A stretch of 64,000 bases of DNA from an uncultured bacterium (GTDB lineage Bacteria; Patescibacteriota; Minisyncoccia; Minisyncoccales; UBA5738). Location: positions 126,618 to 190,617 of the forward strand of contig CAINCQ010000024.1 in assembly GCA_903847095.1 (NCBI GenBank), written 5' to 3'. The notes under the pieces were generated by a model. It saw only the letters and a list, made by a program, of their open reading frames with translations, was not told the origin of the DNA and did not search any database. Of this stretch, positions 2,968 through 18,819 are shown piece by piece (the stretch's first letter is position 1; each line of letters opens with the position of its first letter). The position numbers were made by a program, and so were the translations under genes.

Positions 2968-3328
2968 TGTGGAGAAGACGGGACTTGAACCCGTATCTGG
3001 AAAACGAACGGCTGAAAAAGGTGATACAAGCTTAGTCCGATTTGATAGGGATCATAAGATAGAAACCGGACAAAATTCTTATGAGCCTAGCCCCTGAATT
3101 TCGGCTGGTTTGCCGGAGCCAAAACTTACAGCCTATCTCCCGTGAATTATACCCGAAAAGCTTAAGAGAGATTCAGCCGACCGGATAGCATTATACTAAC
3201 GGTTAAGCGAAAGCTAATGCGGGTTGTTCAAATAAGTTATTGACACTTATAGGTTTGCCGGTTTTTACAAGATCCAGCTACTTGGCTTGTCTGTTTCAGG
3301 TCGTAATCCATCGAATCCTTTCATCCCC
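2968..3328 (-). ncRNA. ssrA: tmRNA (SsrA)
   Basis: minus-strand 5-prime end GGGGAUGAAAGGAUUCGAUGG matches the tmRNA consensus; 3-prime tRNA-like end CGGGUUCAAGUCCCGUCUUCUCCA with a G3:U acceptor pair; internal tag frame ...NNLFEQPALAFA-UAA; immediately downstream of smpB. Confidence 0.85.
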
Positions 3329-3419: not shown

Positions 3420-3881
3420 TTAATACGTTTTTAGCGTGCGCTGGATTTCCCGCAGGGTTTCGCGTTTTTTTATCGATTCGCGCTTGTCGTACTTCTTTTT
3501 TCCGCGCGCTACGCCAAACTCAAGCTTGATCTTTCCAGAGCCGTCATCACGTCCTTTAGTATATAACTTAAGAGGCACAAAAGTCAAGCCTCTTTCGCTT
3601 GTTTTGCCGATAAGGTAGTCGATTTCCTTCTTTTTAAGCAGGAGTTTGCGCGTTCTCTCCGGGTCGTATGACAGGGAAACGTTGTTTGGCTGGTAGGGCG
3701 GGATTTTGACGCCGATCCAAAAAATTCCATCGGTTTTAGCCAAAACATAAGAGCCCGCGAGACTGATGCCTCTCGTTTTCAACGACTTTACCTCCTGTCC
3801 CGAAAGTATTATTCCAGCTTCGAATTTTTCGCCGATTTCATAGTTGAACCGGGCTTTTTTGTTTTCCGCCAATAATTTCAT
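3420..3881 (-). CDS. smpB: SsrA-binding protein SmpB
   Basis: MKLLAENKKARFNYEI...GQEVKSLK...GISLAGSYV... are typical SmpB motifs; adjacent to tmRNA. Confidence 0.9.
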   Translation of the reverse strand: MKLLAENKKARFNYEIGEKFEAGIILSGQEVKSLKTRGISLAGSYVLAKTDGIFWIGVKIPPYQPNNVSLSYDPERTRKLLLKKKEIDYLIGKTSERGLTFVPLKLYTKGRDDGSGKIKLEFGVARGKKKYDKRESIKKRETLREIQRTLKTY

Positions 3882-3963: not shown

Positions 3964-5571
3964 ATGATTCGTCAAGAAATAAAGACAGCGGTTTTTAACG
4001 CGGTTCAGTCTCTGGCTCGTGATAAATCGATATCGGTAGACGGTTTTGACCTAAGGGTTGACGCGATAGCCATGGATTTTTCGAAAGATCGCAGTCATGG
4101 AGATTACGCTTCCAATGTTGCTTTGCAGATCGCCAAAGCGACCGGTAAGAATCCGAAAGATCTCGCGGGACTGGTCAAGATGAGGATCGAGGATAGTGTC
4201 GGCAAGGGCTTTTTTGAAAAGATCGAGGTTGCGGGTCCCGGTTTCATCAATTTTTACGTGTCAAACAAATATTTTCAAAAGGAAGTTTCCCGGATCTTAA
4301 AAGAAAAAGAAAAGTTCGGTTCTTTGGATATCGGGCGAAAAAGGAAAACGCAGGTTGAGTTCATCTCGGCCAATCCTTCGGGCCAGTTGCATATCGGACA
4401 TGGCCGGGGCGCTTTTTTTGGCGATGTTTTGGCGCGAATACTGGCCAAAGCCGGGTATAAGACCGAAAAAGAATTCTATGTCAACGATGCCCGGGTTTCC
4501 AATCAGATCCAGGAATTAGGTAAAACGGCGATGGGCCGCGGCGAGACCTACCTTTCTCCGTATTTGAAAAACTTGATCGAAAAATTGGCGCCCCGGCTTT
4601 CGGGTATGGTTTCGGAAACCGAAGCCGGTTATTACTTGGCCCAAGCGGTGTTAAAGGATCTGAAGGCGTTCATTACGGATAAACTCGGCATTAAGTTCGA
4701 TTATTGGATATCCGAAGAAAGCCTGTATAAAGAAAGCCTGGTCATAGCCACTTACGACATTCTCAAGAAGAAAAATCTGGTTTTCGAAAAAGACGATGCC
4801 TATTGGCTTCGATTGTCGGATTTTGGCGAAAAAGACGAGGTTTTACTGCGGAAGAACGGAAGTCCGACTTATTTTCTTTCGGATATCGCTTATCACCGCT
4901 ACAAGATCGAACGGGGCTACCAAAAGATCATCGATGTCTGGGGGGCTGACCACCAAGGGCACATTCCCCGCATGAAGACAGTGATGCAGATTCTAAGTTA
5001 TAAAGGAGAATACCAGGTTTTAATTTCGCAATTGGTGCGTCTTAAAGGAGGCAAGATGTCGAAGAGGGAAGGCAATATTGTTACTTTGGAGTCATTGATC
5101 GATGAAGTCGGGTTGGATGCCGGCAGGTTTTTTTACTTGGTTAAATCGCTGGACACGCAGATGGAATTCGATGTGGATCTGGCCAAGGAAAAAAGCGAGA
5201 AGAGTCCGGTTTTTTACGCCCAATACGCTTATGCCCGGATATCAAGTATTTTAAGAAAGGCCAAAGGCAATACCCTCGATTCCCGTTCGGTATTGGGATC
5301 ATTGGTTTATTCAAGCGAGATCGAGCTTATCAAAGAGCTTTTACGCCTTCAGGAAGTGGTTGAAGATACGGCCGCCGATTGCCAGGTGCAGCGTCTGTTC
5401 CAGTATTCCCTGGACGTGGCCACCAGTTTTCATAAGTTCTACGGCGAATGCCGGGTAATCTCCGAAGATAAAAAACTGACTGCTGCTCGGTTGCAACTGG
5501 TAAGAGCGACTAAAATCGTTTTGAAAAATACTTTTGACCTGATGGGTATTTCCGCCCCGGAAAAGATGTAA
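3964..5571 (+). CDS. argS: Arginine--tRNA ligase
   Basis: class I HIGH (SANPSGQLHIGHGRGA) and KMSK (GGKMSKREGN); 535 aa. Confidence 0.9.
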   Translation: MIRQEIKTAVFNAVQSLARDKSISVDGFDLRVDAIAMDFSKDRSHGDYASNVALQIAKATGKNPKDLAGLVKMRIEDSVGKGFFEKIEVAGPGFINFYVSNKYFQKEVSRILKEKEKFGSLDIGRKRKTQVEFISANPSGQLHIGHGRGAFFGDVLARILAKAGYKTEKEFYVNDARVSNQIQELGKTAMGRGETYLSPYLKNLIEKLAPRLSGMVSETEAGYYLAQAVLKDLKAFITDKLGIKFDYWISEESLYKESLVIATYDILKKKNLVFEKDDAYWLRLSDFGEKDEVLLRKNGSPTYFLSDIAYHRYKIERGYQKIIDVWGADHQGHIPRMKTVMQILSYKGEYQVLISQLVRLKGGKMSKREGNIVTLESLIDEVGLDAGRFFYLVKSLDTQMEFDVDLAKEKSEKSPVFYAQYAYARISSILRKAKGNTLDSRSVLGSLVYSSEIELIKELLRLQEVVEDTAADCQVQRLFQYSLDVATSFHKFYGECRVISEDKKLTAARLQLVRATKIVLKNTFDLMGISAPEKM

Positions 5572-5587
5572 TTTTTTGCGGACCGCG

Positions 5588-5908
5588 CTAAATCCGAGAA
5601 TAAAAGGCTAAAGAATAAAAAGCTCGGAGATATTTCTCCGGCTGTTGGACTATGCTTACAATATTCGCGAGCCCCGGTTTTTGGCCGTTGGGCTCAAGAA
5701 AATAAGTCGCTTTTTCTGTTTTCACCAACACCAGATTTCCGTCTGGCCTGGCGTCGAAGTTATGGGTAGCCAGGACGAACGCGAGATCCGGAGCGTCTAT
5801 AAGGCGGTCTTCATGACCTGCCAAATAGAGTATGAGTTCGTTGTCGGTACAAGCGGCGGTAGTTGACACCAAGATCAAAACCGCCATAATTACCCGTATT
5901 AAATCCAT
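5588..5908 (-). CDS. Hypothetical secreted protein or lipoprotein
   Basis: N-terminal signal-like MDLIRVIMAVLILVSTTAAC (lipobox-like); start taken at the internal Met. Confidence 0.35.
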   Translation of the reverse strand: MDLIRVIMAVLILVSTTAACTDNELILYLAGHEDRLIDAPDLAFVLATHNFDARPDGNLVLVKTEKATYFLEPNGQKPGLANIVSIVQQPEKYLRAFYSLAFYSRI

Positions 5909-6181
5909 TGTCGTGCCTCGCTGTATTCTTATATTATATAATATATTATTGTCAATAGGTAGAGTATCGGATTGTCCCAATAAGGCGAAGCAAAAAACTT
6001 AGTTTTTTTGTGTAACGCGGCTATTGCGGAGACATCCTGACCATGCGTGTTTTCAAGACCGGCTTCTTCCACGCCCGGTTTGCTATATTGCCAGAAAGTT
6101 CCCACCGGAGTTTTTTTTCTTAGCCGGATCTGCTAAAATTTAAATATTAGTAAGCCAAACCAACATTTGGTATTTTAACTT

Positions 6182-9100
6182 ATGGAAAGCAATTTCAACC
6201 AAAAAGAAAAAGAAATTATTGCTTTTTGGAATCAAAACAAGATTTTCGAAAGATCGGTCGCGGCCCGGGCGCGCGCCAAGGATTTTGTTTTTTTTGAAGG
6301 GCCGCCCACTGCCAATGCCAAACCCGGATTCCACCATGTCCTAACGCGGATCTTCAAGGACATTATTTGCCGTTACAAAACAATGGAGGGTTTTCGGGTC
6401 ATCCGCCGCGCCGGATGGGACACTCACGGTTTACCCGTGGAACTTCAGGTTGAAAAAAAACTGGGATTCACGCAGAAAAAAGATATTGAAAAATACGGAA
6501 TAGCCGAATTCAACAAAAAGTGCAAAGAATCGGTTTGGGAATACAAAAAAGATTTTGAGGCCCTCACCGAGCGCGTCGGTTTTTGGGTGGACATGTCCGA
6601 TCCTTACATTACATATGATCGCCGCTACATGGAATCGGTCTGGTTCCTTTTGAAAACGGCTTGGGACAAAAAGCTTCTTTTTCAGGATTACAAGGTGGTG
6701 CCTTATTGTCCGCGTTGCGGAACTCCTTTGTCGAGCCATGAGGTGGCGCAGGGATACAAGTTGGTGAAGGAGCCTTCGATCTTCGTAAAATTCCGGATCA
6801 TTAATTCCGAATATAAAAACTGTTCCTTGTTGATTTGGACCACGACGCCTTGGACCTTGCCGGGTAATGTGGCTGTGGCCGTGAATGAAAAATTCCAGTA
6901 CGTGAAAGTACGGCTGAACAGCCAACCGGACGAGATTTTAATCTTGGCCAAGGAACGGTTGGCGGTACTGGGTTCCGAATATGAAGTCTTGGCCGAATTC
7001 CCGGGAAAGGACTTGGCTGGCTTGCGATACGAACCGATTTTTCCCTTTTCGGAAGAAGCCGGCCAGAATGCTTATAAAGTGATCATGGCGGATTTCGTTT
7101 CTTTGCAGGATGGTTCCGGTTTGGTCCATATCGCGCCGGCCTTCGGCGAAGACGATATGAATGTTATTAAAGATCAAAACAAGGTCTTAAAGCAGAAGGG
7201 CGAACCGGAATTCCCGGTGATTATGACCGTCAACGAAGATGGAAAATTCAGTCTCGATACCAAGCAATGGGCGGGGCTGTTCGTCAAGGCGGCCGACCCG
7301 CTGATCATCGAAGACCTTAAAAAACGCAATCTGCTTTTCAAGGTAGAACTTTACGAGCATGACTATCCTTTCTGCTGGCGTTGTAAGACGCCCTTGATCT
7401 ATTACGCCAAAAAAAGCTGGTTCATCGAAATGTCAAAATTACGCGGCGAACTGATTGCCAATAACAAATTGATTAACTGGGTTCCGGCCTATATCAAAGA
7501 TGGCCGTTTTGGGGAATGGCTTAAGGAGGCCAAGGATTGGGCGATCTCCCGCGAACGATATTGGGGAACGCCCTTGCCGATCTGGCAATGTTTGAGTTGC
7601 GGCCAAAATACGGTGATCGGTTCGGTTGGCGATCTTTTGTCCCAGAAATATTCGACCAATCGTTATTTTCTTTTCCGGCACGGAGATTCCGAGCGACAGC
7701 TTAAAAAAATATCCAGTTGCTGGCCGGAGGTTAAGCCTCTTTCTTTAACGGCCGAGGGGAAGGCCGAGGTTCAAAAAAGAGCCCAAAAACTCTCTAAGGA
7801 AAAGATTGACTTGATTATATCCTCCGATCTTGAACGGACCAAGCAGACGGCCCAAATGATCGCGTCAGAAACGGGTGCTAAGGTTATTTACGATAAACGG
7901 TTAAGGGAATTCAATGTCGGGGTTTTCAACGGAAAGGACCCCAAGACGGTTTGGGATTTTTTGAACAGTCAGGAGAAGCCTTTGGAAACGAACGTGCCTA
8001 AGGGTGAAAGCTTGAATGCTATCAGAAAAAGGGTTTATGATCTCATAAACTCTGTGAACGCAAAATATCATGATCAGAATATCGTCTTTGTTTCCCATGA
8101 AATCCCGCTCACAGTTCTTCAAGGGACATTAAACGGCCTTGACCTTAAAGAAATCGTTGAATCAAGATATTTAAAGCCCAAAGCCAAGATCGCGACCGCC
8201 GAGTGGCGCGAGATTGAATTCCGCAAGCTGCCGTTCAACGAAAACATGGAGATCGATCTGCACCGTCCTTATGTGGACGGAGTGGATTTTGCGTGTCCCA
8301 AGTGTTCGGGTACGGCTAAGAAGATTCCTGACGTGGTGGATGTCTGGTTTGATTCCGGGGCAATGCCTTTTGCCCAGGCTCATTGGCCTTGGCTTACCGG
8401 ATCCTCCGGCGCGGGCGGTCCTTTCGAAGATTCCAAAGCGGGGTCAAAAAGCGGAAAATTAAAACCTCCCGCGCATTTTCCGGCTGATTTCATATCGGAA
8501 GCGATTGACCAGACCCGCGGCTGGTTTTACACTCTGCTGGCGATTTCCACGTTTTTGGGGTTTGGCGCTCCCTACAAGAACGTCATTTCGCTTGGGCACG
8601 TGCTTGACGCCAAAGGCGAGAAGATGTCCAAGTCAAAAGGCAATATCGTCGATCTTTGGCAGTTGACCGAAAAATACAGCGCCGATGCCATCAGATGGTA
8701 TTTTTACACGGTGAACAATCCCGGCGAATACAAACTTTTTGCCGAAAGAGATATTGACCAGGCGATGAAAAAGTTCATTCTGACCGTTTTTAACTGCCGC
8801 GTTTTTTTAGAGACTTACGCCCCGGGGGTCAAGGCGCCTAAAATCGTGATACCCAGACATGTGCTTGACCGTTGGATCGTGTCGCGGCTTGCCCAAGTGG
8901 CCGGGGAGGTTAAACAGCTTTTGGATACTTACGATATCACGACCGCCGCTCGGAAGCTTGATGATTTTGCCGTCAAAGACTTGTCTCTTTGGTATGTTCG
9001 CCGCTCCCGGCGCCGCTTGCAGCAACCAAAGGTTGCCATGGAGCTCCGCCAGGCTTCCCAGGTATTCGCTTATGTTTTGATGGAATTCGCGAAGATCGCG

Positions 9101-9724
9101 GCTCCCTTCGTTCCTTTTTTGAGCGAGGATGTTTACCAGAGTCTGAGCGCCAACTTTTACCAAAAACCAAAATCCGTGCATTTGGAACTTTGGCCGGTTT
9201 TTCCCAAGGGATCGATTGACCGCGCTCTAAGTGCCGATATGGAAAAAGTGCGGCAAATTGTGACCAACGCGTTGGCTGATCGGGCTAAGCACGGCGTAAA
9301 GATCCGTCAACCTTTGGCCAAAATCACAATTGCCTTGAAAAAAAAGCTGAGTGAAGAACTGTGTTTTTTGCTCAAAGAAGAGCTGAACGTGAAAGTCGTG
9401 GCTTTTGGCCCGGTAGCTCTTGGGGAAATGGAATTGGACTACGTTCTGACGCCGGAGTTGAAGGAAGAAGGGATGGTGCGCGAGATTTTGCGCCATTTGC
9501 AGGATGCCCGAAAAATTGCCGGTTATACCCCGAGGGATCTGATCAATATTTATCTCGAAACATCCGTTGAGTTGCAGGCGATTGTCGTAAAAAACCAAAA
9601 ACAGATCACATCGGATACCAAAACCAAGAATATTTTTTTCAAAGCCCCTCCCAAAGGAGCGGTTGTCGACAAGTTCAAGATGGAGCTCGGCGAATTATCG
9701 CTGGCGATCAAAAAAACCAAGTGA
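6182..9724 (+). CDS. ileS: Isoleucine--tRNA ligase carrying an inserted histidine-phosphatase (PGAM/SixA-like) domain
   Basis: PTANAKPGFHHV (HIGH-like), KMSKSKGN and a Zn-ribbon CPKCSG; 1180 aa is about 130-250 aa longer than typical IleRS; residues encoded by about 7646-8230 carry RHG, SDLERTKQTA, PKGES and VSHE motifs. Confidence 0.85.
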   Translation: MESNFNQKEKEIIAFWNQNKIFERSVAARARAKDFVFFEGPPTANAKPGFHHVLTRIFKDIICRYKTMEGFRVIRRAGWDTHGLPVELQVEKKLGFTQKKDIEKYGIAEFNKKCKESVWEYKKDFEALTERVGFWVDMSDPYITYDRRYMESVWFLLKTAWDKKLLFQDYKVVPYCPRCGTPLSSHEVAQGYKLVKEPSIFVKFRIINSEYKNCSLLIWTTTPWTLPGNVAVAVNEKFQYVKVRLNSQPDEILILAKERLAVLGSEYEVLAEFPGKDLAGLRYEPIFPFSEEAGQNAYKVIMADFVSLQDGSGLVHIAPAFGEDDMNVIKDQNKVLKQKGEPEFPVIMTVNEDGKFSLDTKQWAGLFVKAADPLIIEDLKKRNLLFKVELYEHDYPFCWRCKTPLIYYAKKSWFIEMSKLRGELIANNKLINWVPAYIKDGRFGEWLKEAKDWAISRERYWGTPLPIWQCLSCGQNTVIGSVGDLLSQKYSTNRYFLFRHGDSERQLKKISSCWPEVKPLSLTAEGKAEVQKRAQKLSKEKIDLIISSDLERTKQTAQMIASETGAKVIYDKRLREFNVGVFNGKDPKTVWDFLNSQEKPLETNVPKGESLNAIRKRVYDLINSVNAKYHDQNIVFVSHEIPLTVLQGTLNGLDLKEIVESRYLKPKAKIATAEWREIEFRKLPFNENMEIDLHRPYVDGVDFACPKCSGTAKKIPDVVDVWFDSGAMPFAQAHWPWLTGSSGAGGPFEDSKAGSKSGKLKPPAHFPADFISEAIDQTRGWFYTLLAISTFLGFGAPYKNVISLGHVLDAKGEKMSKSKGNIVDLWQLTEKYSADAIRWYFYTVNNPGEYKLFAERDIDQAMKKFILTVFNCRVFLETYAPGVKAPKIVIPRHVLDRWIVSRLAQVAGEVKQLLDTYDITTAARKLDDFAVKDLSLWYVRRSRRRLQQPKVAMELRQASQVFAYVLMEFAKIAAPFVPFLSEDVYQSLSANFYQKPKSVHLELWPVFPKGSIDRALSADMEKVRQIVTNALADRAKHGVKIRQPLAKITIALKKKLSEELCFLLKEELNVKVVAFGPVALGEMELDYVLTPELKEEGMVREILRHLQDARKIAGYTPRDLINIYLETSVELQAIVVKNQKQITSDTKTKNIFFKAPPKGAVVDKFKMELGELSLAIKKTK

Positions 9725-9940
9725 TTCGTTAAAAGAAAAGGTTTGATCCCGACAGCGGGTCGTTGTAAGTTAATCCGGCCCGGAGATATGCGGGGTTTTA
9801 GAAAAGCGAACAGAGCTTAGCTTACCGGGTTTAACCTGGACAAGTTTGTTTTTAAAGTTTGCCGGGATGTTATTGGCGGAAAATTAGTGTTAAAATAGTA
9901 ACGAACACGAATATTTATTAGCCGTTTCAGCCAAATTTCA

Positions 9941-10966
9941 ATGCTTTTATTTTTTTGGTCATTGGTTTTTGCCGTATCACTTCTGCTTTTGGTAAAGTCG
10001 GCCGATTTTTTGACCGAGTCTTTGGTAAAATTAGCTTCCGACCTTAAGATACCGGCTTTCATAATGGGATTGACCGTGGTGTCGCTTGGCACTTCGTTGC
10101 CGGAATTATCCGCCAGTATTGCCGCGGTGATGCGCGGCCGGGGGGAATTGGCGGCTTCGCTGGCTATAGGTTCCACGATCGCCGGAATATTACTGGTGGT
10201 GGGGATGAGCGTCATTTCCGCCAGGGTGTTATTGGTAAGGAAAAGACTTATCGATATTGACGCTTCTTTGTTCGCGATCAGCCTCGTTCTTTTTTATTTT
10301 GTGGCGCGCGATGGAGGGATTAACGCGCTTGAAGGCGTTGTTCTTCTCGCGGGATTTCTGGTTTGTGTTTTTTACGTCATTACGGAAAAAAAGGATGACG
10401 ATCTGACTTCCGACACTTTGATAACTCCCGACCTGCTTGATTCAAAGAACGAAGCCAGGCTTGTCGAAATATTACCGTCAAGGTTGGAGAAAAGCCTGGC
10501 TCGCAAACAGGATTCGGATTTTTCTCTGAGATCTTTTTTGCTTTTGGTCTTTGGTTTCGTGGGGCTGGCGATAGGGGCCAAGCTTACCGTTGACTCGCTG
10601 GTGGGCATTTCCGATTTGTTGAATATCGAAGGGACGGTTCTGGCCATGACGATGCTGGCGATCGGCACCGCCTTACCCGAACTCTTTGTGGCCGTGAGCG
10701 CGGTGGCCAGAAAGAACGGTGGTTTGGCGCTTGGAAATGTTTTTGGTTCCAGCATTATCAATCTTTCGTTGGTTTTGGGATTAAGTTCCATGTTCGGGAG
10801 GGTTGATTTGGATACGGTCACTTACACCGTTGGCTTGCCTTTCCTGCTGGCTTCCGCGGCTTTACTGATAGTGTCCGGGATATCAAGAAGGATCCATTAT
10901 TGGGAAGGGATAATGTATCTGCTTGTTTATTTCCTCTTTATCGTCAAAGTATTCGGCCTATTTTAA
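9941..10966 (+). CDS. Ca2+/cation antiporter (CaCA family, YrbG-like)
   Basis: two alpha-repeat motifs GTSLPELSASI and GTALPELFVAVSA; about 10 TM helices. Confidence 0.7.
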   Translation: MLLFFWSLVFAVSLLLLVKSADFLTESLVKLASDLKIPAFIMGLTVVSLGTSLPELSASIAAVMRGRGELAASLAIGSTIAGILLVVGMSVISARVLLVRKRLIDIDASLFAISLVLFYFVARDGGINALEGVVLLAGFLVCVFYVITEKKDDDLTSDTLITPDLLDSKNEARLVEILPSRLEKSLARKQDSDFSLRSFLLLVFGFVGLAIGAKLTVDSLVGISDLLNIEGTVLAMTMLAIGTALPELFVAVSAVARKNGGLALGNVFGSSIINLSLVLGLSSMFGRVDLDTVTYTVGLPFLLASAALLIVSGISRRIHYWEGIMYLLVYFLFIVKVFGLF

Positions 10967-10989
10967 TTAATCATTACTATTTAGATATT

Positions 10990-11727
10990 ATGTCTCCAAT
11001 CGCAGATAATCGTAACCTTTCGGGGGATAAACCGATCGACTTCAAAAACCTGGAACAGGCCAACCAGCCCGCGCGCCACGAACAAGCGAAAAGCAGTATG
11101 GAGCGCGGCTTAGAGACCGGCGCGAACGTTAACGGTGTGCCGGTTGTTCCGTCGGTTCCGCCAAATACGGAAGTGAGGTCAAGTATCTTTTCGCGCCTGG
11201 AGCGACCAAAAGCCGCGGAACCCGCTGATCCTTTCGACGCGCCGGAGTTTAAAGAGAAGAAAGAGAATAAGGAAGAGAAAAAGGAAATAAGCCGGCCGGA
11301 GGAACGGAGCAGCTCGGAGGAAAAAACAAAAGAACAGATAAAGGCGGCAATGACTAAAACCCCGGCTATCGCCGCGGGATCGGCGCAAAAAAAACAAGCC
11401 GAACCGGTAAAGAAGGTTGAGCTTCCCAAGACGGTTTTTGGGGAAAAGGCGTACGTAAAAAAAGATCTTTTGAAATATTCTTTATGGAAAAGCGACGATT
11501 TGAAGAAAATGACCAAACTTGGCCGGCACGATCGGTCGGAATTGGCGCAGGAATTTTTTCCCAATAGGAACTTTGTTAGAAAGGATGATGTCCAGATGAA
11601 AATTCGCAAGATAGAGAGCGGTAAAGACAAGCCTCCAAAAGCGCTCGGTACGGGCCGGATAGCCAGGACCCGGGCTGCCAATGTTTTACGCGGGATGATC
11701 GGAGAAAAGCAAAAGAGGGTGTTTTAG
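10990..11727 (+). CDS. Hypothetical K/E-rich protein
   Basis: ATG at 10990 just after the CaCA stop; low-complexity Lys/Glu-rich middle; no recognised domain. Confidence 0.35.
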   Translation: MSPIADNRNLSGDKPIDFKNLEQANQPARHEQAKSSMERGLETGANVNGVPVVPSVPPNTEVRSSIFSRLERPKAAEPADPFDAPEFKEKKENKEEKKEISRPEERSSSEEKTKEQIKAAMTKTPAIAAGSAQKKQAEPVKKVELPKTVFGEKAYVKKDLLKYSLWKSDDLKKMTKLGRHDRSELAQEFFPNRNFVRKDDVQMKIRKIESGKDKPPKALGTGRIARTRAANVLRGMIGEKQKRVF

Positions 11728-11751
11728 GATAGGTTTTTATTAAAAAAAGCA

Positions 11752-12459
11752 ATGTTTGTTAATTATAAGACCAGTGGAATATTCTTAAAGAAAATTGACA
11801 AAGGAGAGGCCAATCAGCTATTTACAATCTATACCAAGGATTTCGGCCGTTTGGAGGTGATGGGTAAGGGGATAAGAAAAATGGCTTCCAAGCTAAGGTC
11901 GCAAACCCGGATTTTAAGCTTTTCCGATATTGAATTCATCCAGGGCAAGGCCGGTAAAACACTCACTGATTCCAGGATCAAGGAAAAATTTGAAAAAATC
12001 AGCCTGGATCTTGATAAAACGGAAACCGCCGAAAAGATCGTTGGTCTGGTGGCGTTGACGGTCAGGGGTCAGGAACGCGATGAAAAATCCTGGCAGTTGC
12101 TCTTGGAAACCCTATATTTTTTAAAAAAAACGGAACTTCGGGAGTCTCACGCGGTCTACCAGTATTTTTTTTGGAATTTTATGGCGGGCCTGGGCTATCG
12201 CCCTCAACTTGATGTATGCTGTTTTTGTTTAAGGAAGCTAGCCAATGAAATTTATTTTGAGCCAGCCGAGGGCGGCATAAGCTGCAAATCCTGCCGTCCA
12301 AAAGGAGAAAGAGATTGCCCGATAGACGCCGGGATCTTAAGGATTTTAAGGGTTTTTGAAAAAAGCGATTTGGAGGCCGCCGCGAGGATCAAATTTTCAC
12401 TCAATCAAAAAAACAAATTGGAAACGATATCGACAAGTTTCCTATCAACAATTCTATGA
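11752..12459 (+). CDS. recO: DNA repair protein RecO
   Basis: N-terminal OB-like region GIFLKKIDKGEANQLFTIYTKDFGRL plus C-terminal 4-Cys zinc motif CCFC...CKSC. Confidence 0.65.
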   Translation: MFVNYKTSGIFLKKIDKGEANQLFTIYTKDFGRLEVMGKGIRKMASKLRSQTRILSFSDIEFIQGKAGKTLTDSRIKEKFEKISLDLDKTETAEKIVGLVALTVRGQERDEKSWQLLLETLYFLKKTELRESHAVYQYFFWNFMAGLGYRPQLDVCCFCLRKLANEIYFEPAEGGISCKSCRPKGERDCPIDAGILRILRVFEKSDLEAAARIKFSLNQKNKLETISTSFLSTIL

Positions 12460-14129
12460 GCAAATTAATCAAAGTCTTGGTCTTTCTTGTTTTGATCCTT
12501 GCTGTGGTGGGATACGTCCTTTTTGAACGGAACAGTTATTCCAAGGAAGGTTTGAAGCTGGAGATCATTGGTCCCCAGGAAATAAATTTAGGCGAGGAGA
12601 CCGAATACATCGTTAAATATAAAAACAACGGTGATTTCCGGCTGGAAAACCCGACCCTCCTTTTTGAGCCGCCCGCCTTTTCCATTAAGGATGACAAGAT
12701 ATATCAAAAAGAGATTTTAACCTCCGATAAGCTTGGCGGGGCGATCTATCCGGGCGAAGAAAAAACTTTTTCTTTCAAGATGAGGTTGGTCGGGAAGGAA
12801 GGGGAGGCAAAGATCGCCAAGGCGACTTTGAATTATCAGCCGAAGAATCTAAAAACCACGTACGAATCCGCGACCAGCTTTACTACCGTGATCAAGTCGG
12901 TTCCTCTTACTTTCGAGTACGACCTTCCTTCCAAACTCGAAGCCGATAAGGACTTTAGTTTTAAATTGAATTATTCCTCCAGTATCCCTTGGTTGCTTAC
13001 GGATTTGCGCGTCCAAGTCGAGTATCCTTCGGGATATGAATTCATCGAATCGACGCCCAAGTCCCTGGATAAAACGGAATGGGACATCCCGGTTTTAAAT
13101 AATAATGAAGCGGGGAGTATTGACGTGGTCGGGCGTATTTCGGGGAATATCGGCGATGCCAAGGTTTTTCGCGCCAAGCTCGGCATTTGGAAGGACGGGG
13201 AATTTACCTTGCTTAAAGAGATCGAAAAGGGTGTGGAAATCCAGAAGCCTTCGGTGTCGATCCGCCAGGATATAAACGGCAATCCGAAGTACGTGGCCAA
13301 ACCGGGGGACTGGCTTCATTACGAAATTTATTTTAAAAACATTTCCGGAGAAGATCAGTATAATTTATACATGATCAACAAACTGGACGGCGATCTCTTT
13401 GATTTCAACGCCATCAAATCCGAGACCGGGAGCTTCGAACAAGGTGATAATTCCATTATTTTCGATTGGCGGAAAAACTCGAAATTGCAATATTTGGCTC
13501 CAATGGACGAAGGGAAGGCGGAATTTTGGATAAAACTGAAAGACGATCTTAGCCAGATCAAAAAACCTTCACTATCGAACAGCGTGATGATCGGTCAGGC
13601 GAGCCAGTATTTCACGACCAAGATCAGTTCCAAACTGGAATTAGTCCAAAAAACCTATTATAGCGACGAGATCTTCGGTAATAGCGGACCCATTCCCCCG
13701 GTTGTCGGCCAAACTACGACTTATACTGTTACCTGGCAGGCCAAGAATTATTATTCGGACGTAAAGAACGCGGTGGCTACGGCCATGATTCCTAAAAACG
13801 TCAAATTTACCGGGCAGGTTTTTCCTGAACAGCAAACCGGAAAATTGATCTATGACGCTGATTCAGGCAAGCTCACTTGGAATATCGGGGACCTTAAAAC
13901 GGGCCAGGGGGTGATAACGGCTCCGGAAAACGTATCTTTCCAGGTATCGATCACGCCTTCAAGCGACGATATCGCCAAAAGCGTCCAGCTGGTGGGTGCG
14001 GCAAGGATTTCCGGGGATGACAATTGGACCGCCATGGTTTTAGAGGCCGAAACGGCGGCTCTTGACACGGTTTCCCTTTCCGACCAGAATATGACCGAAG
14101 ACAAAGGGAAAGTGATAAATTCAAATTAA
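12456..14129 (+). CDS. Hypothetical membrane-anchored extracellular protein
   Basis: single N-terminal TM (LIKVLVFLVLILAVVGYV) followed by a 530-aa beta-rich, Cys-free domain. Confidence 0.4.
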   Translation: MSKLIKVLVFLVLILAVVGYVLFERNSYSKEGLKLEIIGPQEINLGEETEYIVKYKNNGDFRLENPTLLFEPPAFSIKDDKIYQKEILTSDKLGGAIYPGEEKTFSFKMRLVGKEGEAKIAKATLNYQPKNLKTTYESATSFTTVIKSVPLTFEYDLPSKLEADKDFSFKLNYSSSIPWLLTDLRVQVEYPSGYEFIESTPKSLDKTEWDIPVLNNNEAGSIDVVGRISGNIGDAKVFRAKLGIWKDGEFTLLKEIEKGVEIQKPSVSIRQDINGNPKYVAKPGDWLHYEIYFKNISGEDQYNLYMINKLDGDLFDFNAIKSETGSFEQGDNSIIFDWRKNSKLQYLAPMDEGKAEFWIKLKDDLSQIKKPSLSNSVMIGQASQYFTTKISSKLELVQKTYYSDEIFGNSGPIPPVVGQTTTYTVTWQAKNYYSDVKNAVATAMIPKNVKFTGQVFPEQQTGKLIYDADSGKLTWNIGDLKTGQGVITAPENVSFQVSITPSSDDIAKSVQLVGAARISGDDNWTAMVLEAETAALDTVSLSDQNMTEDKGKVINSN

Positions 14130-14148
14130 CAAATCCGTTCCCACTCCC

Positions 14149-15567
14149 ATGTTGGACTTAACGCAAAAAATAATTTCTCTTACCAAACAAAAAGGCTTTA
14201 TCTTCCCGTCTTCGGAAATTTATGGCGGCATCCAGGGTTTTTACGACTACGGCCCTTTGGGCGTTCAATTGAAGAATAATATCAAGTCCGCTTGGTGGCG
14301 GGCGATGGTGCAGGAGCGGGATGATATTTTTGGTTTGGACGCCGCGATCATCATGAATCCGACGGCTTGGGTAGCCTCGGGCCACGTATCCAATTTTACC
14401 GATCCGCTAGTGGAGTGTAAGTCTTGCCATAAGCGCTTCCGAGCCGACCATCTGGCCGATAAGGTCAAAGAAAGCAAAGAATTCAAGGAGCGGGGCGTAA
14501 GCGAGGAGGATGCCAAAGATTGGGCCAAGGTCTTGGAGGGAGTTAAATGTTTTGAATGTAAGGGTGAACTTACCGCTCCGCGTCTTTTTAATTTGATGTT
14601 TAAAACCTACGCGGGTCCCGCCGAAGACAGCGCGTCCCAGGTTTATTTGCGTCCCGAAACCGCTCAGGGGATCTTCACCAATTACAAGAACATCCTTGAT
14701 ACCCAGCGGGTTAAGATTCCTTTCGGTATCGCGCAAATCGGCAAGGCTTTCCGCAACGAGATTACGCCGGGTAATTTTATTTTCCGCCAGCGCGAGTTCG
14801 AACAGATGGAGATGGAATATTTTTGCCAGCCCGGCGACGACGAAAAGGTCCACGAAGAATGGATCAAACGCCGGTTTGACTGGTATGTCCAAGCACTTGG
14901 CTTAAAGAAAGATAATTTACGGATCAGGACGCACGAAAAATCGGAACTCGCGCATTATGCCAAGGCTTGCGTGGACGTTGAATATAAATTTCCGTTCGGC
15001 TGGTCCGAAATCGAAGGCATCGCCAATCGGCAAGCCCACGACCTGACCCAGCATCAAAAATTTTCGGGGGTCGATCTTAACTATTTTGACGAAACGACCA
15101 AGGAAAAATATATTCCTTACGTGATCGAGCCGTCCTGCGGGGTGGAGCGTTTGATGTTCGCGGTGATCTGCGACGCGTATCAGGAGATCGAGGGCGGACG
15201 GACGACAACGACCGAGTCAACCAAGGAAGCAGAAGTGGTTTTGAGGTTTTCCAAGGCGATGGCTCCCATTAAAATCGCGGTTCTGCCTTTACTGAAGAAT
15301 AAACCCGATCTGGTCAATAAGGCAAAAGAGGTTTACCAAATGCTGAAACCGGTTTTTATGTGCAAATACGATGAGGCCGGCACCATCGGAAGAAGGTATC
15401 GACGCCAGGATGAGATCGGAACGCCTTATTGTATTACGATAGATTTTGATACGTTAGAAAAAGGAGATGTTACGGTTCGTGACCGCGACACAATGGCGCA
15501 GGTAAGGATACCGGTCTCGGAATTATTGAAATATTGCCAGGAAGGCATAACGACGAATAAAAATTAA
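14149..15567 (+). CDS. glyQS: Glycine--tRNA ligase (alpha2 dimeric type)
   Basis: N-terminus GFIFPSSEIYGGIQGFYDYGPLGVQLKNNI is the hallmark of eukaryote/archaeal-like GlyRS; class II motifs present. Confidence 0.9.
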   Translation: MLDLTQKIISLTKQKGFIFPSSEIYGGIQGFYDYGPLGVQLKNNIKSAWWRAMVQERDDIFGLDAAIIMNPTAWVASGHVSNFTDPLVECKSCHKRFRADHLADKVKESKEFKERGVSEEDAKDWAKVLEGVKCFECKGELTAPRLFNLMFKTYAGPAEDSASQVYLRPETAQGIFTNYKNILDTQRVKIPFGIAQIGKAFRNEITPGNFIFRQREFEQMEMEYFCQPGDDEKVHEEWIKRRFDWYVQALGLKKDNLRIRTHEKSELAHYAKACVDVEYKFPFGWSEIEGIANRQAHDLTQHQKFSGVDLNYFDETTKEKYIPYVIEPSCGVERLMFAVICDAYQEIEGGRTTTTESTKEAEVVLRFSKAMAPIKIAVLPLLKNKPDLVNKAKEVYQMLKPVFMCKYDEAGTIGRRYRRQDEIGTPYCITIDFDTLEKGDVTVRDRDTMAQVRIPVSELLKYCQEGITTNKN

Positions 15568-15568
15568 T

Positions 15569-16834
15569 ATGTATAAAAAAGTCACATTAAAAAACGGGTT
15601 GCGGATATTGGTCGTGCCCGCGAAAAGTACCAAGGCCGTTACTGTAATGGCGCTGGTCGGGACCGGATCGAAATACGAAACAAAAGAAATAAGCGGTATT
15701 TCCCATTTTCTGGAACATATGTTTTTCAAGGGGACGAAAAAGAGGCCCGATAAGGTCCAGATCGCCGAAGACTTGGATAAGGTCGGCGGCAACTTCAACG
15801 CTTTTACCGGGACCGATTTTACGGGTTATTGGGCAAAAGTGGCAAGCGATAAATTCGATCTGGCCATGGATTGGGTCTCCGATATCTACCTTAATTCTTT
15901 GTTGCCCGCCGACGAGCTTGATAAGGAGCGGGGAGTGATCATCGAAGAGATCAATATGTATTACGACCATCCGATGCGCTACATCGGCAATCTTTGGCAG
16001 GAATTGCTTTATGGCGATCAACCGGCCGGATGGGATATTGCCGGTACCAAGGACACGGTTTCAAAAATGACCCGGACGCAAATGTTCGATTACCGGGCGC
16101 GCCAGTATGTGGCTTCGAACACGATCGTGGTGGTAGCCGGGAACGTCACTGTTCCCAAGGCCATAGCAATGGCTAAGAAGCAGTTTGCTTCGATCAAAAG
16201 CGATAAGCCGCAAAAAAAAGCGGCGGTAATGGAATCGCAGGACAAGCCAGGATTTTTATTGCAAAAAAGGAAATGCGACCAGACCCAGATCGCGCTGGGT
16301 GTCCGTGGATATAATATTTTCCATCCCAAGCGTTATGCTTTGGAAGTGATGGCAACGATCCTGGGCGGAATGATGAGTTCCCGTTTGTTCATCGAGGTGC
16401 GGGAAAAACTGGGCTTGGCTTATCATATCCACGTTGACAATACGATGGATCCGGAAACCGGCAGTTTTGCCGTAATGGCGGGCTTGGATTCAAAAAGGAT
16501 CGATTTGGGAATAACCACGATTTTAAAGGAATTCAAAAAGATCAAAGAGGTAAGGGTAGCGGCCGAAGAGTTAAAAAGGGCCAAGGATAATATGATCGGA
16601 AGGACGATTTTGGCCCTGGAATCTTCAGATGCTTTAGCTTCATTTTACGCCGAACAGGAATTGATGGAGGGAAAGATCGAAACACCGGAAAAGATCTTTA
16701 ACCGGATCAGGAAAGTAACCGCCAAGGATATCCAGGAAGTGGCCCAGGACCTGTTCCGCCCCGAAATTTTGAATCTGGCCATGATCGGGTCTTTCGACGA
16801 TGAAAAAAGGTTTAAAGATATGCTCGAAGTCTAA
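15569..16834 (+). CDS. M16 family zinc peptidase (insulinase-like)
   Basis: inverted zinc motif HFLEHMFFKGT (HxxEH); 421 aa. Confidence 0.8.
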   Translation: MYKKVTLKNGLRILVVPAKSTKAVTVMALVGTGSKYETKEISGISHFLEHMFFKGTKKRPDKVQIAEDLDKVGGNFNAFTGTDFTGYWAKVASDKFDLAMDWVSDIYLNSLLPADELDKERGVIIEEINMYYDHPMRYIGNLWQELLYGDQPAGWDIAGTKDTVSKMTRTQMFDYRARQYVASNTIVVVAGNVTVPKAIAMAKKQFASIKSDKPQKKAAVMESQDKPGFLLQKRKCDQTQIALGVRGYNIFHPKRYALEVMATILGGMMSSRLFIEVREKLGLAYHIHVDNTMDPETGSFAVMAGLDSKRIDLGITTILKEFKKIKEVRVAAEELKRAKDNMIGRTILALESSDALASFYAEQELMEGKIETPEKIFNRIRKVTAKDIQEVAQDLFRPEILNLAMIGSFDDEKRFKDMLEV

Positions 16835-16883
16835 AAGAGAAATCAGCTAACCGCCAGGAACGATCTTAAGATATCATAGTCAT

Positions 16884-17915: not shown

Positions 17916-17921
17916 TTCTTT

Positions 17922-18620: not shown

Positions 18621-18744
18621 GGATGGGGTATTAAATAAGAGAGCATGAAATACGCGGTAAACAATATTAATCAAATTATTATCGACCTTCTTCTTGAGGG
18701 ATGTTTTTTCGAATAACAAAGCACCGAACATATCGAAGACACAC

Positions 18745-18768
18745 CCCTCCAAAAGAGGGTTTTTTGTT
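18745..18768 (+). terminator. Rho-independent terminator (CCCTC-CAAAAG-AGGG hairpin plus T-run)
   Basis: cccctccaaaagagggttttttg downstream of rsmI. Confidence 0.55.
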
Positions 18769-18819
18769 CTTTAGAGGAGTAAAGCTCGTTCACAATTAAA
18801 TATAATGAGGAGGATTGTT

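What the first reader, a model, noticed from the sequence alone, without database searches (positions are those of the whole stretch)
7646..8230. IleRS with an embedded histidine-phosphatase (PGAM/SixA-like) domain
The single 1180-aa ileS ORF contains a ~190-aa insertion between the catalytic-core region (...WISRERYWGTPLPIW, CLSCG) and the downstream zinc-ribbon/KMSKS region (LHRPYVDG...CPKCSG...VWFDSG). The insertion carries the full signature set of the histidine phosphatase superfamily: LFRHGDSE (catalytic RHG), LSLTAEG, SSDLERTKQTA, RLREFNVGVFNG, PKGES and VFVSHE (second catalytic His). It is in frame with no stops, so it is a domain insertion, not a neighbouring gene, and it lacks intein hallmarks. 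A phosphatase module inside an aaRS could link aminoacylation to a phospho-signal or alarmone, or hydrolyse a phosphorylated intermediate; I do not know of an IleRS with this domain. A second, free-standing histidine phosphatase is encoded at 40596-41195.
Basis: partly seen in the sequence, partly recalled or inferred. Interest (0 to 1): 0.8.

Follow-up and report, generated by a model that had tools for sequence, protein, structure and literature searches.

The report
Phosphatase domain nested inside IleRS
An otherwise complete isoleucyl-tRNA synthetase of a candidate-phyla-radiation bacterium carries a catalytically intact histidine-phosphatase enzyme inside one of its surface loops; hundreds of related species keep this pairing, either nested like this or as a separate gene fused end-to-start with ileS, and nobody appears to have described it or knows what it dephosphorylates.

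Summary

It is not a chimera. The identical protein occurs on 12 contigs from four sources. All 120 closest full-length IleRS carry the domain, as do 71 of 80 species-representative genomes retrieved.

The catalytic residues R499, H500, R552, E609 and H639 are conserved in 80-81 of 81 species.

New here: in sister lineages the orthologous phosphatase is a separate ~190-aa gene. In 14 of 14 cases it lies between argS and an insertion-less ileS, often overlapping the ileS start (ATGA). Insertion-type loci in the same synteny lack that gene.

Other CPR lineages nest the same domain, in one to four copies, at the homologous CP3 site of ValRS (Gracilibacteria/Peregrinibacteria) or at other IleRS loops.

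This is therefore a dedicated, probably active phosphomonoesterase partner of class Ia synthetases. Its substrate is unknown. I infer a target bound at the synthetase (tRNA 3' end, the enzyme itself, or a nucleotide product).

Seven literature searches found no description.

The parts
3964..5571 (+). argS (ArgRS, 535 aa), the conserved upstream neighbour of the ileS / His_Phos unit
   Evidence: ORF. The same argS-[His_Phos]-ileS order holds in L001-L012 with Pfam Arg_tRNA_synt_N/tRNA-synt_1d/DALR_1.
5572..6181 (.). argS-ileS spacer, the position where sister lineages encode the free-standing His_Phos gene. Here there is no phosphatase remnant, only an unannotatable 130-aa ORF on the minus strand (5588-5980).
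   Evidence: tblastn of 10 free-standing homologues against 5500-6300 gives nothing better than E 1.6. The minus-strand ORF has no Pfam hit.
6182..9724 (+). ileS: a single 1180-aa type-2 isoleucyl-tRNA synthetase ORF that contains the insert
   Evidence: TIGR00392, 877 bits; Foldseek E 8e-93 to P. megaterium IleRS2 8C8V.
6326..6337 (+). Class I signature motif in its swapped form G49-F-H-H52 (GxHH instead of HxGH)
   Evidence: Alignment to 1ILE 'PHVGH'. H51/H52 are near-invariant in 120 homologues. The GxHH variant is described for IleRS2 in PMC10485003.
6752..7369 (+). CP1 editing domain (aa ~191-396), with the TTTPWT and GxGxVHxAPxFGxxD motifs intact
   Evidence: Matches the solved IleRS editing-domain chains 1WK8/1WNY. 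T220-T225, H316 and D325 are invariant.
7589..7600 (+). First CxxC of the CP3 zinc knuckle (C470, C473)
   Evidence: Invariant in 120 homologues. Aligns to Tth C461/C464. CP3 of Tth IleRS carries a Zn motif (PMC7191050).
7643..8251 (+). Whole insert (aa 488-690): N-linker, His_Phos_1 domain and C-linker. It replaces the ~10-residue tip of CP3.
   Evidence: gap in insertion-less IleRS. Junction comparison.
7667..8221 (+). Histidine phosphatase superfamily branch-1 domain (aa 496-680)
7676..7684 (+). RHG motif: R499, nucleophile H500, G501
   Evidence: Invariant in 120 homologues. R is conserved in 81/81 and H in 80/81 species representatives.
7835..7837 (+). Second phosphate-binding arginine, R552
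   Evidence: 81/81; invariant.
8006..8008 (+). Proton-donor glutamate E609 (GES motif)
   Evidence: 81/81; invariant in A1.
8096..8098 (+). Second catalytic histidine, H639 (VSHE)
   Evidence: 81/81; invariant.
8222..8251 (+). C-linker F-R-K-L-P-F-N-E-N-M-E-I (LPxNxxxE[ILF]D). It is specific to inserted forms and absent from the free-standing proteins.
   Evidence: Junction comparison across clades. L683 and P684 are at least 90% conserved.
8294..8305 (+). Second CxxC of the CP3 zinc knuckle (C705, C708)
   Evidence: Invariant. Aligns to Tth C502/C504.
8390..8452 (+). Gly/Ser-rich disordered loop (aa 737-757) between WFDSG and FPADFI. It is absent from most homologues, and it is the same loop that holds a His_Phos copy in another IleRS lineage (P0296/P0331).
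   Evidence: pLDDT below 50. Gap fraction 0.63. P0296/P0331 sequences.
8621..8635 (+). KMSKS motif (aa 814-818)
   Evidence: K814, M815, S816, K817 and S818 are invariant.
8867..9319 (+). Anticodon-binding domain (aa 896-1046)
   Evidence: PF08264, E 6e-28.
9431..9715 (+). Type-2 IleRS C-terminal domain (DUF5915, aa 1084-1178)
   Evidence: PF19302, E 7e-15.

Best explanation
The insert is a complete, catalytically competent branch-1 histidine phosphatase (PhoE/CobC/PspA-like fold). It is nested at the tip of the CP3 zinc knuckle of a fully functional-looking type-2 IleRS. It is the orthologue of a ~190-aa phosphatase that sister Paceibacteria encode as a separate gene wedged between argS and ileS and translationally coupled to ileS. 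The phosphatase is therefore a dedicated partner of IleRS, delivered either in trans from the same operon or, as here, in cis inside the enzyme.

Shown: the domain, its insertion point, conservation of its catalytic residues, the complementary split/inserted distribution in one conserved synteny, and parallel insertions in ValRS and at other IleRS loops.

Inferred: it hydrolyses a phosphomonoester (or terminal phosphate) through a phospho-His500 intermediate. Because its scaffold is that of broad-specificity small-molecule phosphatases, its specificity comes from being held next to the synthetase. CP3 springs from the C-terminal ends of two Rossmann-fold strands that line the adenylate pocket.

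The likely target is something bound at or produced by the synthetase. My single best guess is a phosphorylated or pyrophosphorylated tRNA 3' end that must be cleared before aminoacylation (about 0.2). Next come a phospho-residue on the synthetase itself, such as in the KMSKS loop (about 0.15), and a nucleotide product such as AMP, NDP or PPi (about 0.15).
For: Identity and integrity:
- Pfam, NCBIfam, PDB sequence and fold matches.
- The IleRS motifs GxHH, KMSKS, the CP1 editing motifs and both CxxC pairs are invariant in 120 homologues.
- AF2 full-length model: pLDDT 88.6, pTM 0.81, with linkers at pLDDT 92-96.

Purifying selection:
- The insert is as conserved as the editing and anticodon domains (majority frequency 0.67 against 0.71 and 0.68) and has 1% gaps.
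- The catalytic R/H/R/E/H set is conserved in 80-81 of 81 species representatives.

Not an artefact:
- The identical protein is on 12 contigs from 4 sources.
- All 120 best full-length hits carry PF00300.
- A one-pattern scan of GTDB species genomes gave 210 confirmed loci. Of the 80 kept, 69 are single-ORF IleN+insert+IleC and 2 are partial.

Partnership:
- 14 of 14 free-standing close homologues with context lie between argS and an insertion-less ileS, overlapping the ileS start by 4-10 nt in several loci (ATGA in L004).
- 4 of 4 insertion-type loci in the same synteny, including the window, lack the free gene.
- Free and inserted domains are up to 72% identical.

Generality:
- 69 of the 120 ValRS nearest to P0262 carry 1-3 copies. 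63 of the 83 copies follow WGHxIPxW, the homologous CP3 site.
- Other IleRS lineages carry 2-3 copies at CP3, after WFDSG, or in the anticodon-domain loop.
Against: - No activity, substrate or interaction has been measured.
- AlphaFold coordinates could not be exported. The distance and orientation of H500 relative to the adenylate site, the KMSKS loop or a docked tRNA are therefore untested.
- The nearest solved relatives are all small-molecule phosphatases, not nucleic-acid or protein phosphatases. Known protein phosphatases of the superfamily (SixA, PGAM5, Sts) are more distant.
- Insertions at several different loops and in tandem copies argue that exact geometry is not critical. That fits tethering in general but weakens any precise channelling model.
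- Operon adjacency and fusion can also arise for co-expression alone in reduced genomes.
- The trees are NJ with few bootstraps. The direction and number of split/inserted transitions are unresolved.
Confidence: 0.6

Rival explanations
1. Hitch-hiking housekeeping enzyme. The domain is an ordinary small-molecule phosphatase (sugar-phosphate, phosphoserine, ribazole-like or nucleotide) whose function has nothing to do with aminoacylation. In these tiny genomes it sits in the argS-ileS operon for constitutive co-expression. It became fused into a permissive, structurally variable loop (CP3) without functional coupling.
For: The closest structures and profiles are all metabolic phosphatases: PspA, GpgP, CobC, a riboflavin-pathway HFP and PhoE. 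PMC7191050 describes CP3 as differing in topology among IleRSs, so it is a tolerant site. Insertions occur at several loops and in variable copy number.
Against: A neutral fusion of an upstream gene would be end-to-end, not nested. The same domain has been nested repeatedly into IleRS and, in another class of CPR, into ValRS at the homologous site. All 14 free forms stay glued to ileS. The linkers are conserved and confidently modelled.
Confidence: 0.2
2. Non-catalytic module. The domain has been co-opted as a phosphate- or nucleotide-binding sensor, or as a structural or tRNA-binding appendage (compare the TFIIIC tau55 histidine-phosphatase domain), and modulates IleRS allosterically without turnover.
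Against: In the IleRS family the nucleophile His, the proton-donor Glu and the second His are kept together in 80-81 of 81 species. That is the signature of catalysis rather than binding alone.
Confidence: 0.08
3. Cofactor-dependent phosphoglycerate mutase moonlighting inside IleRS. On this reading it supplies the glycolytic or nucleotide-salvage pathway (3-PGA to 2-PGA) of a minimal genome.
Against: The score is far below the model's cut-off (225). The domain has ~190 residues, and I did not see in it the C-terminal tail and extra segment that, from my own knowledge of the family, characterise dPGMs. Phosphatases outrank mutases in every search.
Confidence: 0.05
4. Selfish or mobile insertion (intein-like or cassette-like) that spreads between synthetase genes and is merely tolerated.
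For: The distribution of split and inserted states on the IleRS tree is patchy. Free and inserted copies reach 66-72% identity. Junctions are identical across IleRS clades. Copies occur at several sites and in ValRS.
Against: There is no Hint, endonuclease or transposase domain and no splice-junction residues (the sequence shows this directly). The domain is never lost without a free copy next to ileS. Purifying selection on the catalytic residues is strong. Base composition is not anomalous (GC 0.42-0.47 against 0.45-0.54 in the rest of the gene).
Confidence: 0.04
5. Assembly or gene-calling artefact that joins two genes.
For: None, beyond the general risk in metagenome assemblies.
Against: The identical ORF is on 12 contigs from 4 sources, the longest 233 kb. 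At least 71 species-representative genomes and 120 protein clusters share the architecture. IleRS sequence continues in frame on both sides, completing the zinc knuckle.
Confidence: 0.01

Closest known systems
Type-2 (eukaryote-like, mupirocin-resistant) IleRS: T. thermophilus 1ILE, Priestia megaterium IleRS2 8C8U/8C8V
   Same: Full domain order: Rossmann/HUP core, CP core, CP1 editing, CP2, Zn-knuckle CP3, KMSKS, anticodon-binding domain and type-2 C-terminal domain. Scores are 38% identity to 1ILE over Foldseek's structural alignment of the model, phmmer E 2e-238, and Foldseek E 8e-93 with TM 0.82 to 8C8V. It also has the swapped GxHH signature that PMC10485003 links to mupirocin hyper-resistance.
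   Different: About 203 residues forming an independent enzyme domain replace the ~9-residue tip of CP3. No solved or described IleRS has this.
Small branch-1 histidine phosphatases: PspA (4IJ5), glucosyl-3-phosphoglycerate phosphatase (6S2Q), CobC (6E4B), PhoE (1H2E)
   Different: Only 20-29% identity. It is below the curated cut-off of every characterised subfamily model. Those enzymes are free-standing and metabolic, whereas this one is nested in, or operon-coupled to, a tRNA synthetase.
NCBIfam NF040702 'ileS_w_GNAT' (IleRS containing an N-acetyltransferase domain)
   Same: It is another IleRS class that NCBI recognises as carrying an extra catalytic domain. This shows that IleRS can host accessory enzymes (name seen).
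   Different: A different accessory fold and chemistry. The window protein matches that model only through its IleRS part (304 bits against a cut-off of 1999). No equivalent curated model exists for the His_Phos architecture.
Histidine-phosphatase domains fused to nucleic-acid or nucleotide enzymes: bifunctional RNase H/acid phosphatase (NF005567, Rv2228c type) and Nudix-HPD MutT1 (Rv2985; 9CXX, 3FJY)
   Different: Those are terminal fusions, and the partner is not an aaRS. Scores are below family cut-offs.
Clade-specific domain insertions in class I synthetases, e.g. the cyanobacterial CAAD membrane anchor in ValRS and other aaRSs (PMC4893482, listed; details from my own knowledge)
   Same: One accessory domain was inserted recurrently into several class I synthetases within one phylum.
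   Different: CAAD is a non-catalytic transmembrane anchor. Here the inserted module is an enzyme with an intact active site, and it alternates with a free-standing operonic form.

Membership tests
Isoleucyl-tRNA synthetase (TIGR00392 ileS), type 2 | Whole-protein score above the curated equivalog cut-off | tested here: met
   877.2 bits against a cut-off of 621.4, in two stretches split at aa 488.
Isoleucyl-tRNA synthetase (TIGR00392 ileS), type 2 | Class I signature motifs HIGH and KMSKS | tested here: met
   KMSKS at aa 814-818 is invariant. HIGH is present as the swapped natural variant GFHH (aa 49-52), which is documented as functional in IleRS2.
Isoleucyl-tRNA synthetase (TIGR00392 ileS), type 2 | CP1 editing domain with the threonine-rich and GxGxVHxAP...D motifs | tested here: met
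   WTTTPWT (aa 219-225) and GSGLVHIAPAFGEDD (aa 311-325) are invariant in 120 homologues. The region matches the solved editing-domain chains 1WK8/1WNY.
Isoleucyl-tRNA synthetase (TIGR00392 ileS), type 2 | Type-2 C-terminal domain rather than the type-1 zinc-binding domain | tested here: met
   PF19302 DUF5915 at aa 1084-1178. The best structural matches are IleRS2 entries.
Isoleucyl-tRNA synthetase (TIGR00392 ileS), type 2 | Isoleucine-specific aminoacylation of tRNA-Ile | not testable with these tools
   Requires biochemistry.
Histidine phosphatase superfamily, branch 1 (PF00300) | Profile score above the Pfam gathering threshold | tested here: met
   111.9 bits in context and 116.6 bits alone, against 21.7.
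Histidine phosphatase superfamily, branch 1 (PF00300) | RHG motif with nucleophilic His, second Arg, second His, and a Glu proton donor (the branch-1 hallmark) | tested here: met
   R499, H500, G501, R552, E609 and H639. They are conserved in 80-81 of 81 species representatives and invariant in 120 homologues.
Histidine phosphatase superfamily, branch 1 (PF00300) | The alpha/beta/alpha fold of the superfamily | tested here: met
Histidine phosphatase superfamily, branch 1 (PF00300) | Phosphatase or mutase activity through a phospho-histidine intermediate | not testable with these tools
   Requires enzymology.
Cofactor-dependent phosphoglycerate mutase (NF038349 dPGM_arch; TIGR01258 pgm_1) | Score above the curated cut-off | tested here: not met
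   84.7 bits against 225, and 32.4 against 81.7.
Alpha-ribazole phosphatase CobC (TIGR03162) | Score above the curated cut-off | tested here: not met
   83.8 bits against 162.9.
Phosphoserine phosphatase PspA (NF045917) | Score above the curated cut-off | tested here: not met
   81.9 bits against 350, although 4IJ5 is the nearest solved structure.
Phosphohistidine phosphatase SixA (TIGR00249) | Score above the curated cut-off | tested here: not met
Intein | Hint/splicing domain; Cys/Ser/Thr at the N-junction and His-Asn plus Cys/Ser/Thr at the C-junction | tested here: not met
   No Hint or endonuclease family at E <= 0.01 in the full ORF. The junctions read ...LLSQKYSTN... and ...NENMEIDLHRP....

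The most novel reading that the evidence does not exclude
The nested phosphatase is a new kind of in-cis quality-control or repair activity of class Ia synthetases. One option is that it clears a blocking 3'-phosphate or pyrophosphate from the tRNA CCA end, such as the lesion left by RNase or toxSAS-type toxins. Another is that it reverses toxin-kinase phosphorylation of the synthetase. The most radical option is that it attacks released mis-activated aminoacyl-adenylates through its histidine nucleophile, as a third 'editing' site. Any of these would explain why the same domain has been recruited independently to IleRS and ValRS, the two classic editing synthetases, and why it alternates between a translationally coupled partner gene and a CP3 insert.
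Probability: 0.2. Interest if true: 0.9.

Novelty: new variant of a known kind. Interest (0 to 1): 0.74.

Why it matters
Aminoacyl-tRNA synthetases are among the best-studied enzymes, and the known catalytic add-ons are essentially editing domains. Here a second, unrelated and apparently active enzyme sits next to the adenylate site of IleRS. It is conserved across at least ~200 species-level genomes of Paceibacteria. It is mirrored in the ValRS of Gracilibacteria/Peregrinibacteria, and it is interchangeable with an operon-coupled free protein. This points to an unrecognised phosphate-removal step linked to tRNA charging in the candidate phyla radiation, a large part of bacterial diversity that has minimal genomes and almost no biochemistry.

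The question is directly testable. The split form gives a natural two-protein system for binding assays. The inserted form gives point mutants (H500A, E609A) for kinetics. The finding also documents an unusual evolutionary process: a whole ORF moving between 'upstream gene' and 'internal loop' of an essential gene. Finally, it flags a missing curated family model, since NCBI currently names these proteins only 'class I tRNA ligase family protein'.

Tried and rejected
1. The first homology search used only the 300-aa insert region. It returned only short, partial proteins, because the tool seems to limit hit length, so the full-length protein had to be searched again.
2. The window's other histidine phosphatase (40596-41195, minus strand) was tested as a possible donor or paralogue and rejected. 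It has no significant similarity (BLASTP E 5.2), and hmmsearch with the insert profile does not pick it up.
3. A decayed free-standing phosphatase gene in the argS-ileS spacer was looked for and not found.
4. Foldseek against AFDB50 was unavailable. AlphaFold coordinates are not exposed to scripts. The planned measurement of active-site distances and tRNA docking therefore could not be done.
5. Seven literature searches combining IleRS/ValRS/aaRS with histidine phosphatase, PGAM, CPR, Patescibacteria and the Pfam names found nothing relevant. The recent IleRS evolution preprint does not mention it.
6. Intein, chimera and dPGM readings were considered and rejected (see rivals).
7. A Biopython distance calculation timed out and was redone with numpy.
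8. The domain tree has no bootstraps and long branches. I use it only to say that free and inserted forms interleave.
9. The promoter/terminator scan of the spacer gave nothing above shuffled expectation.
Full report
**Observation.** The window encodes a single uninterrupted ORF at 6182-9724 (+) of 1180 aa. NCBIfam assigns it to ileS (TIGR00392, 877 bits against a cut-off of 621), but in two stretches that break at residue 488. Pfam places tRNA-synt_1 on both sides, with Anticodon_1 and DUF5915 at the C-terminus. Between the two halves it places His_Phos_1 (PF00300) at aa 496-680, with E 4e-32 and 112 bits against a gathering score of 21.7. The 'second' histidine phosphatase at 40596-41195 is real (PF00300, E 1.7e-18). 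It lies on the minus strand and is unrelated at the BLASTP level to the insert.

**Insertion point.** phmmer against PDB aligns query 2-487 to T. thermophilus IleRS 7-478 and query 691-1039 to 488-821. About 203 residues therefore replace about nine. The flanks are the two CxxC halves (C470/C473 and C705/C708) that correspond to the second zinc site of the Thermus enzyme. In the nomenclature of the Candida IleRS paper this is the CP3 subdomain. That paper notes that CP3 differs in topology between IleRSs and carries a zinc motif in Thermus (PMC7191050). CP3 connects two strands of the second Rossmann half (WGxPxPxW and DVWFDSG). From general knowledge of the fold, loops at the C-terminal ends of those strands border the adenylate pocket. 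This last point is inference, not a measurement.

**Integrity of the synthetase.** KMSKS, the CP1 editing motifs and both zinc knuckles are invariant in an alignment of 120 homologues. The HIGH motif is present as GFHH. This is the natural 'swapped' GxHH variant that Brkic et al. showed to be functional in IleRS2 and to confer mupirocin hyper-resistance (PMC10485003). The AlphaFold model of the whole protein is confident (pLDDT 88.6, pTM 0.81). The insert scores 94-97 and both linkers 92-96; only a Gly/Ser-rich loop (aa 737-757) is disordered. Foldseek finds IleRS2 structures first (8C8V, E 8e-93).

**Integrity of the phosphatase.**
- The isolated domain models at pLDDT 90.8.
- The protein phosphatases SixA (16.8), PGAM5 (14.6) and Sts-2 (13.8) come later.
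- It is below the curated cut-off of every characterised subfamily model: dPGM, CobC, PspA, GpmB and SixA.
- R499, H500, R552, E609 and H639 are invariant or nearly so in 21 partial sequences, in 120 full-length sequences, and in 81 domains from species-representative genomes (81, 80, 81, 81 and 81 of 81).
- Its column conservation (0.67) equals that of the editing (0.71) and anticodon (0.68) domains, and it has almost no gaps.

**Not an artefact.** The exact protein is in the public collection on 12 contigs from NCBI, JGI, ENA and Logan, the longest 233 kb. Cluster members at 90% identity or more are named Candidatus Nealsonbacteria and Vogelbacteria. All 120 best full-length hits (53-81% identity, 1142-1244 aa) combine PF00133, PF00300, PF08264 and PF19302.

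A scan of one genome per GTDB species with a single peptide pattern gave 245 matches, of which 210 were confirmed. I classified the 80 loci kept:
- 69 are single-ORF IleN+insert+IleC.
- 2 are the same but cut by a contig end.
- 8 are free-standing genes.
- 1 is a free gene without context.

Record titles include Nealsonbacteria, Paceibacterota, Minisyncoccales, Parcubacteria, Wolfe-, Wildermuth- and Jorgensenbacteria and Ca. Paceibacter normanii. Many records carry a generic 'uncultured Candidatus Saccharibacteria' label that I do not trust as taxonomy.

**The key new result: a split form.** The closest free-standing relatives of the insert (about 190 aa, 38-45% identical) are not scattered in their genomes. 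In six of six looked up (P0034, P0036, P0038, P0052, P0059, P0063), the gene lies directly after argS and directly before an ileS of 938-959 aa that has no PF00300. In L009 that ileS is called in two pieces of 725 and 213 aa. In L006 one extra ORF intervenes. The same holds for the eight free forms with context in the genome scan, giving 14 of 14.

The gap after argS is 2-3 nt in several loci. The phosphatase stop overlaps the ileS start by 4-10 nt in L001-L004 and L007; in L004 the overlap is ATGA.

The neighbourhood is the same as in the window and in three other insertion-type loci (L010-L012): L20/L35/IF3, SmpB, argS..., ileS, RecO, a DUF7619 protein and a class II synthetase. In those loci no free phosphatase gene lies between argS and ileS. 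In the window that spacer (5572-6181) holds no remnant.

The free proteins begin (MNNxYFILRHG) and end (...GExRKLxFK*) exactly where the inserted domain begins and ends. Inserted forms add a short N-linker and a conserved C-linker, LPxNxxxE[ILF]D. This is a Rosetta-stone relationship: the same phosphatase is supplied to IleRS either in trans from a coupled gene or in cis inside CP3.

**Evolutionary pattern.** I built an NJ tree of IleRS with the insert removed (80 taxa, 917 columns, 50 bootstraps). Split forms fall in at least three places. One of them (L007) is nested in a 100%-supported clade of inserted enzymes. Some free domains are 66-72% identical to inserted ones, yet all inserted IleRS share the same junctions. 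I cannot say whether this reflects repeated relocation, or exchange of the CP3 cassette between ileS alleles by homologous recombination. It is recorded as unexplained.

**Beyond this clade.** The representative search with the insert alone found 8780 proteins at E <= 1e-3. Among the top hits were synthetases with several copies:
- IleRS of another lineage (PPFATGLPHYGH type; contigs up to 1.06 Mb) carry one copy after WFESG and one at the start of the anticodon-binding domain (P0296, P0331), or two to three copies within CP3 (P0367, P0378).
- P0262 is a ValRS. Searching with it showed that 69 of its 120 closest ValRS relatives carry one to three copies. These are 1011-1626 aa, are named Ca. 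Gracilibacteria or Peregrinibacteria, and sit on contigs up to 1.37 Mb.
- 63 of the 83 copies lie directly after WGHxIPxW, the position homologous to the IleRS site. The catalytic residues are largely kept.

So the same enzyme has been nested in CP3 of the two sister editing synthetases in different CPR classes.

**Mechanism.**
- Shown: an intact phosphatase active site under purifying selection, obligate genomic and physical association with IleRS, and parallel recruitment to ValRS.
- Inferred: the domain hydrolyses a terminal phosphate through phospho-His500. Because its scaffold is that of broad-specificity small-molecule phosphatases, tethering, sometimes in tandem, is what gives it a target. 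Tethering helps only if the substrate is bound to, or produced by, the synthetase.
- Candidates: a 3'-phosphorylated or pyrophosphorylated tRNA end (precedents, from my own knowledge and not checked here: RNase damage; toxSAS toxins, Kurata et al. 2021); a phospho-residue on the synthetase (precedent, again from my own knowledge: HipA/HipT kinases phosphorylating the KMSKS region of GltX and TrpS); or nucleotide products. The Nudix-HPD enzyme MutT1, a structural neighbour, shows that the fold can act on nucleotides.
- I rank the tRNA-end idea first, at only about 0.2. The general statement (a dedicated, active, synthetase-associated phosphatase) I hold at about 0.6-0.7.
- Main rival (0.2): a metabolic phosphatase that merely rides in the operon and in a permissive loop. 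Sensor, mutase, selfish-element and artefact readings are less likely, for the reasons given under rivals.

**Comparison and novelty.** As a synthetase it is a member of IleRS type 2. As a phosphatase it is a member of PF00300, but of no characterised subfamily. Conceptual relatives are other synthetases with clade-specific inserted or appended domains (NCBIfam ileS_w_GNAT; cyanobacterial CAAD), and His_Phos domains fused to RNase H or Nudix enzymes. None of these is a phosphatase nested in a synthetase. Seven full-text searches and two targeted paper look-ups found no description. Databases hold hundreds of examples, labelled only 'class I tRNA ligase family protein'. I rate it a new variant of a known kind, with high interest for the synthetase and CPR fields.

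**Limits.** There is no biochemistry. Model coordinates could not be accessed. AFDB50 was unavailable. The trees are distance-based. The genome scan used one peptide pattern, so counts are lower bounds.

Noticed in passing
window 6326-6337 (IleRS aa 49-52): The class I HIGH motif is the swapped natural variant GFHH (GxHH). In P. megaterium IleRS2 this swap confers mupirocin hyper-resistance (PMC10485003). Most inserted and split relatives share GxHH, but one clade has the canonical HYGH.
   Followed up: partly
P0262, P0406-P0524: ValRS of Ca. Gracilibacteria/Peregrinibacteria carry 1-3 (P0262: 4) His_Phos_1 copies, mostly right after WGHxIPxW, the CP3 site homologous to the IleRS insert. 69 of the 120 nearest ValRS have the domain. 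In some tandem copies the second catalytic His is replaced by Asn.
   Followed up: partly
P0296, P0331, P0367, P0378, P0279, P0350: A different IleRS lineage (PPFATGLPHYGH type, contigs up to 1.06 Mb, taxonomy unknown) has 2-3 His_Phos copies at other places: after WFESGSMPYA, at the first loop of the anticodon-binding domain, or on both sides of the DLHK motif within CP3.
   Followed up: partly
window 8390-8452 (IleRS aa 737-757): A Gly/Ser-rich, predicted-disordered loop (LTGSSGAGGPFEDSKAGSKSGKL) lies between WFDSG and FPADFI. It is missing from most homologues (63% gaps). The same loop hosts a phosphatase copy in P0296/P0331.
   Followed up: partly
window 5588-5980 (-): A 130-aa ORF with an N-terminal hydrophobic stretch followed by Cys (lipoprotein-like) and no Pfam hit. 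It occupies the argS-ileS spacer, where split lineages encode the free phosphatase.
   Followed up: partly
window 40596-41195 (-) and 40957-42180 (+): A second, unrelated histidine phosphatase (199 aa) sits head-to-head with, and overlaps the called start of, an ORF carrying a PPDK_N (PEP-utilising, ATP-binding) domain. This could be a metabolic or regulatory pair.
   Followed up: partly
window 2969-3328 (-) and 3420-3881 (-): A tmRNA gene (tag VNNLFEQPALAFA) lies next to smpB, immediately upstream and divergent from argS. The SmpB-argS-ileS synteny is conserved across Paceibacteria loci L001-L012.
   Followed up: partly
window 3964-21908: A cluster of synthetase genes within 18 kb: argS (3964-5571), ileS (6182-9724), a class II tRNA-synt_2b/HGTP_anticodon enzyme (14149-15567) and a short MetRS-like ORF (20451-21908, 485 aa).
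   Followed up: no
window 18805-20355 (+): An HMGL-like + LeuA_dimer protein (2-isopropylmalate/citramalate synthase family). This is a branched-chain amino-acid biosynthesis-type enzyme, which I would not expect in a CPR genome with a reduced metabolism.
   Followed up: no
window 58881-61691 (+): A 936-aa UvrD-type helicase fused to a PD-(D/E)XK nuclease (AddA/AddB-like).
   Followed up: no
L076 and L087: Two insertion-type IleRS loci come from MAGs titled 'Candidatus Binatia' and 'Acutalibacteraceae'. On the IleRS tree they cluster with each other, nested among the Patescibacteria sequences, so they are probably mis-binned CPR contigs.
   Followed up: no
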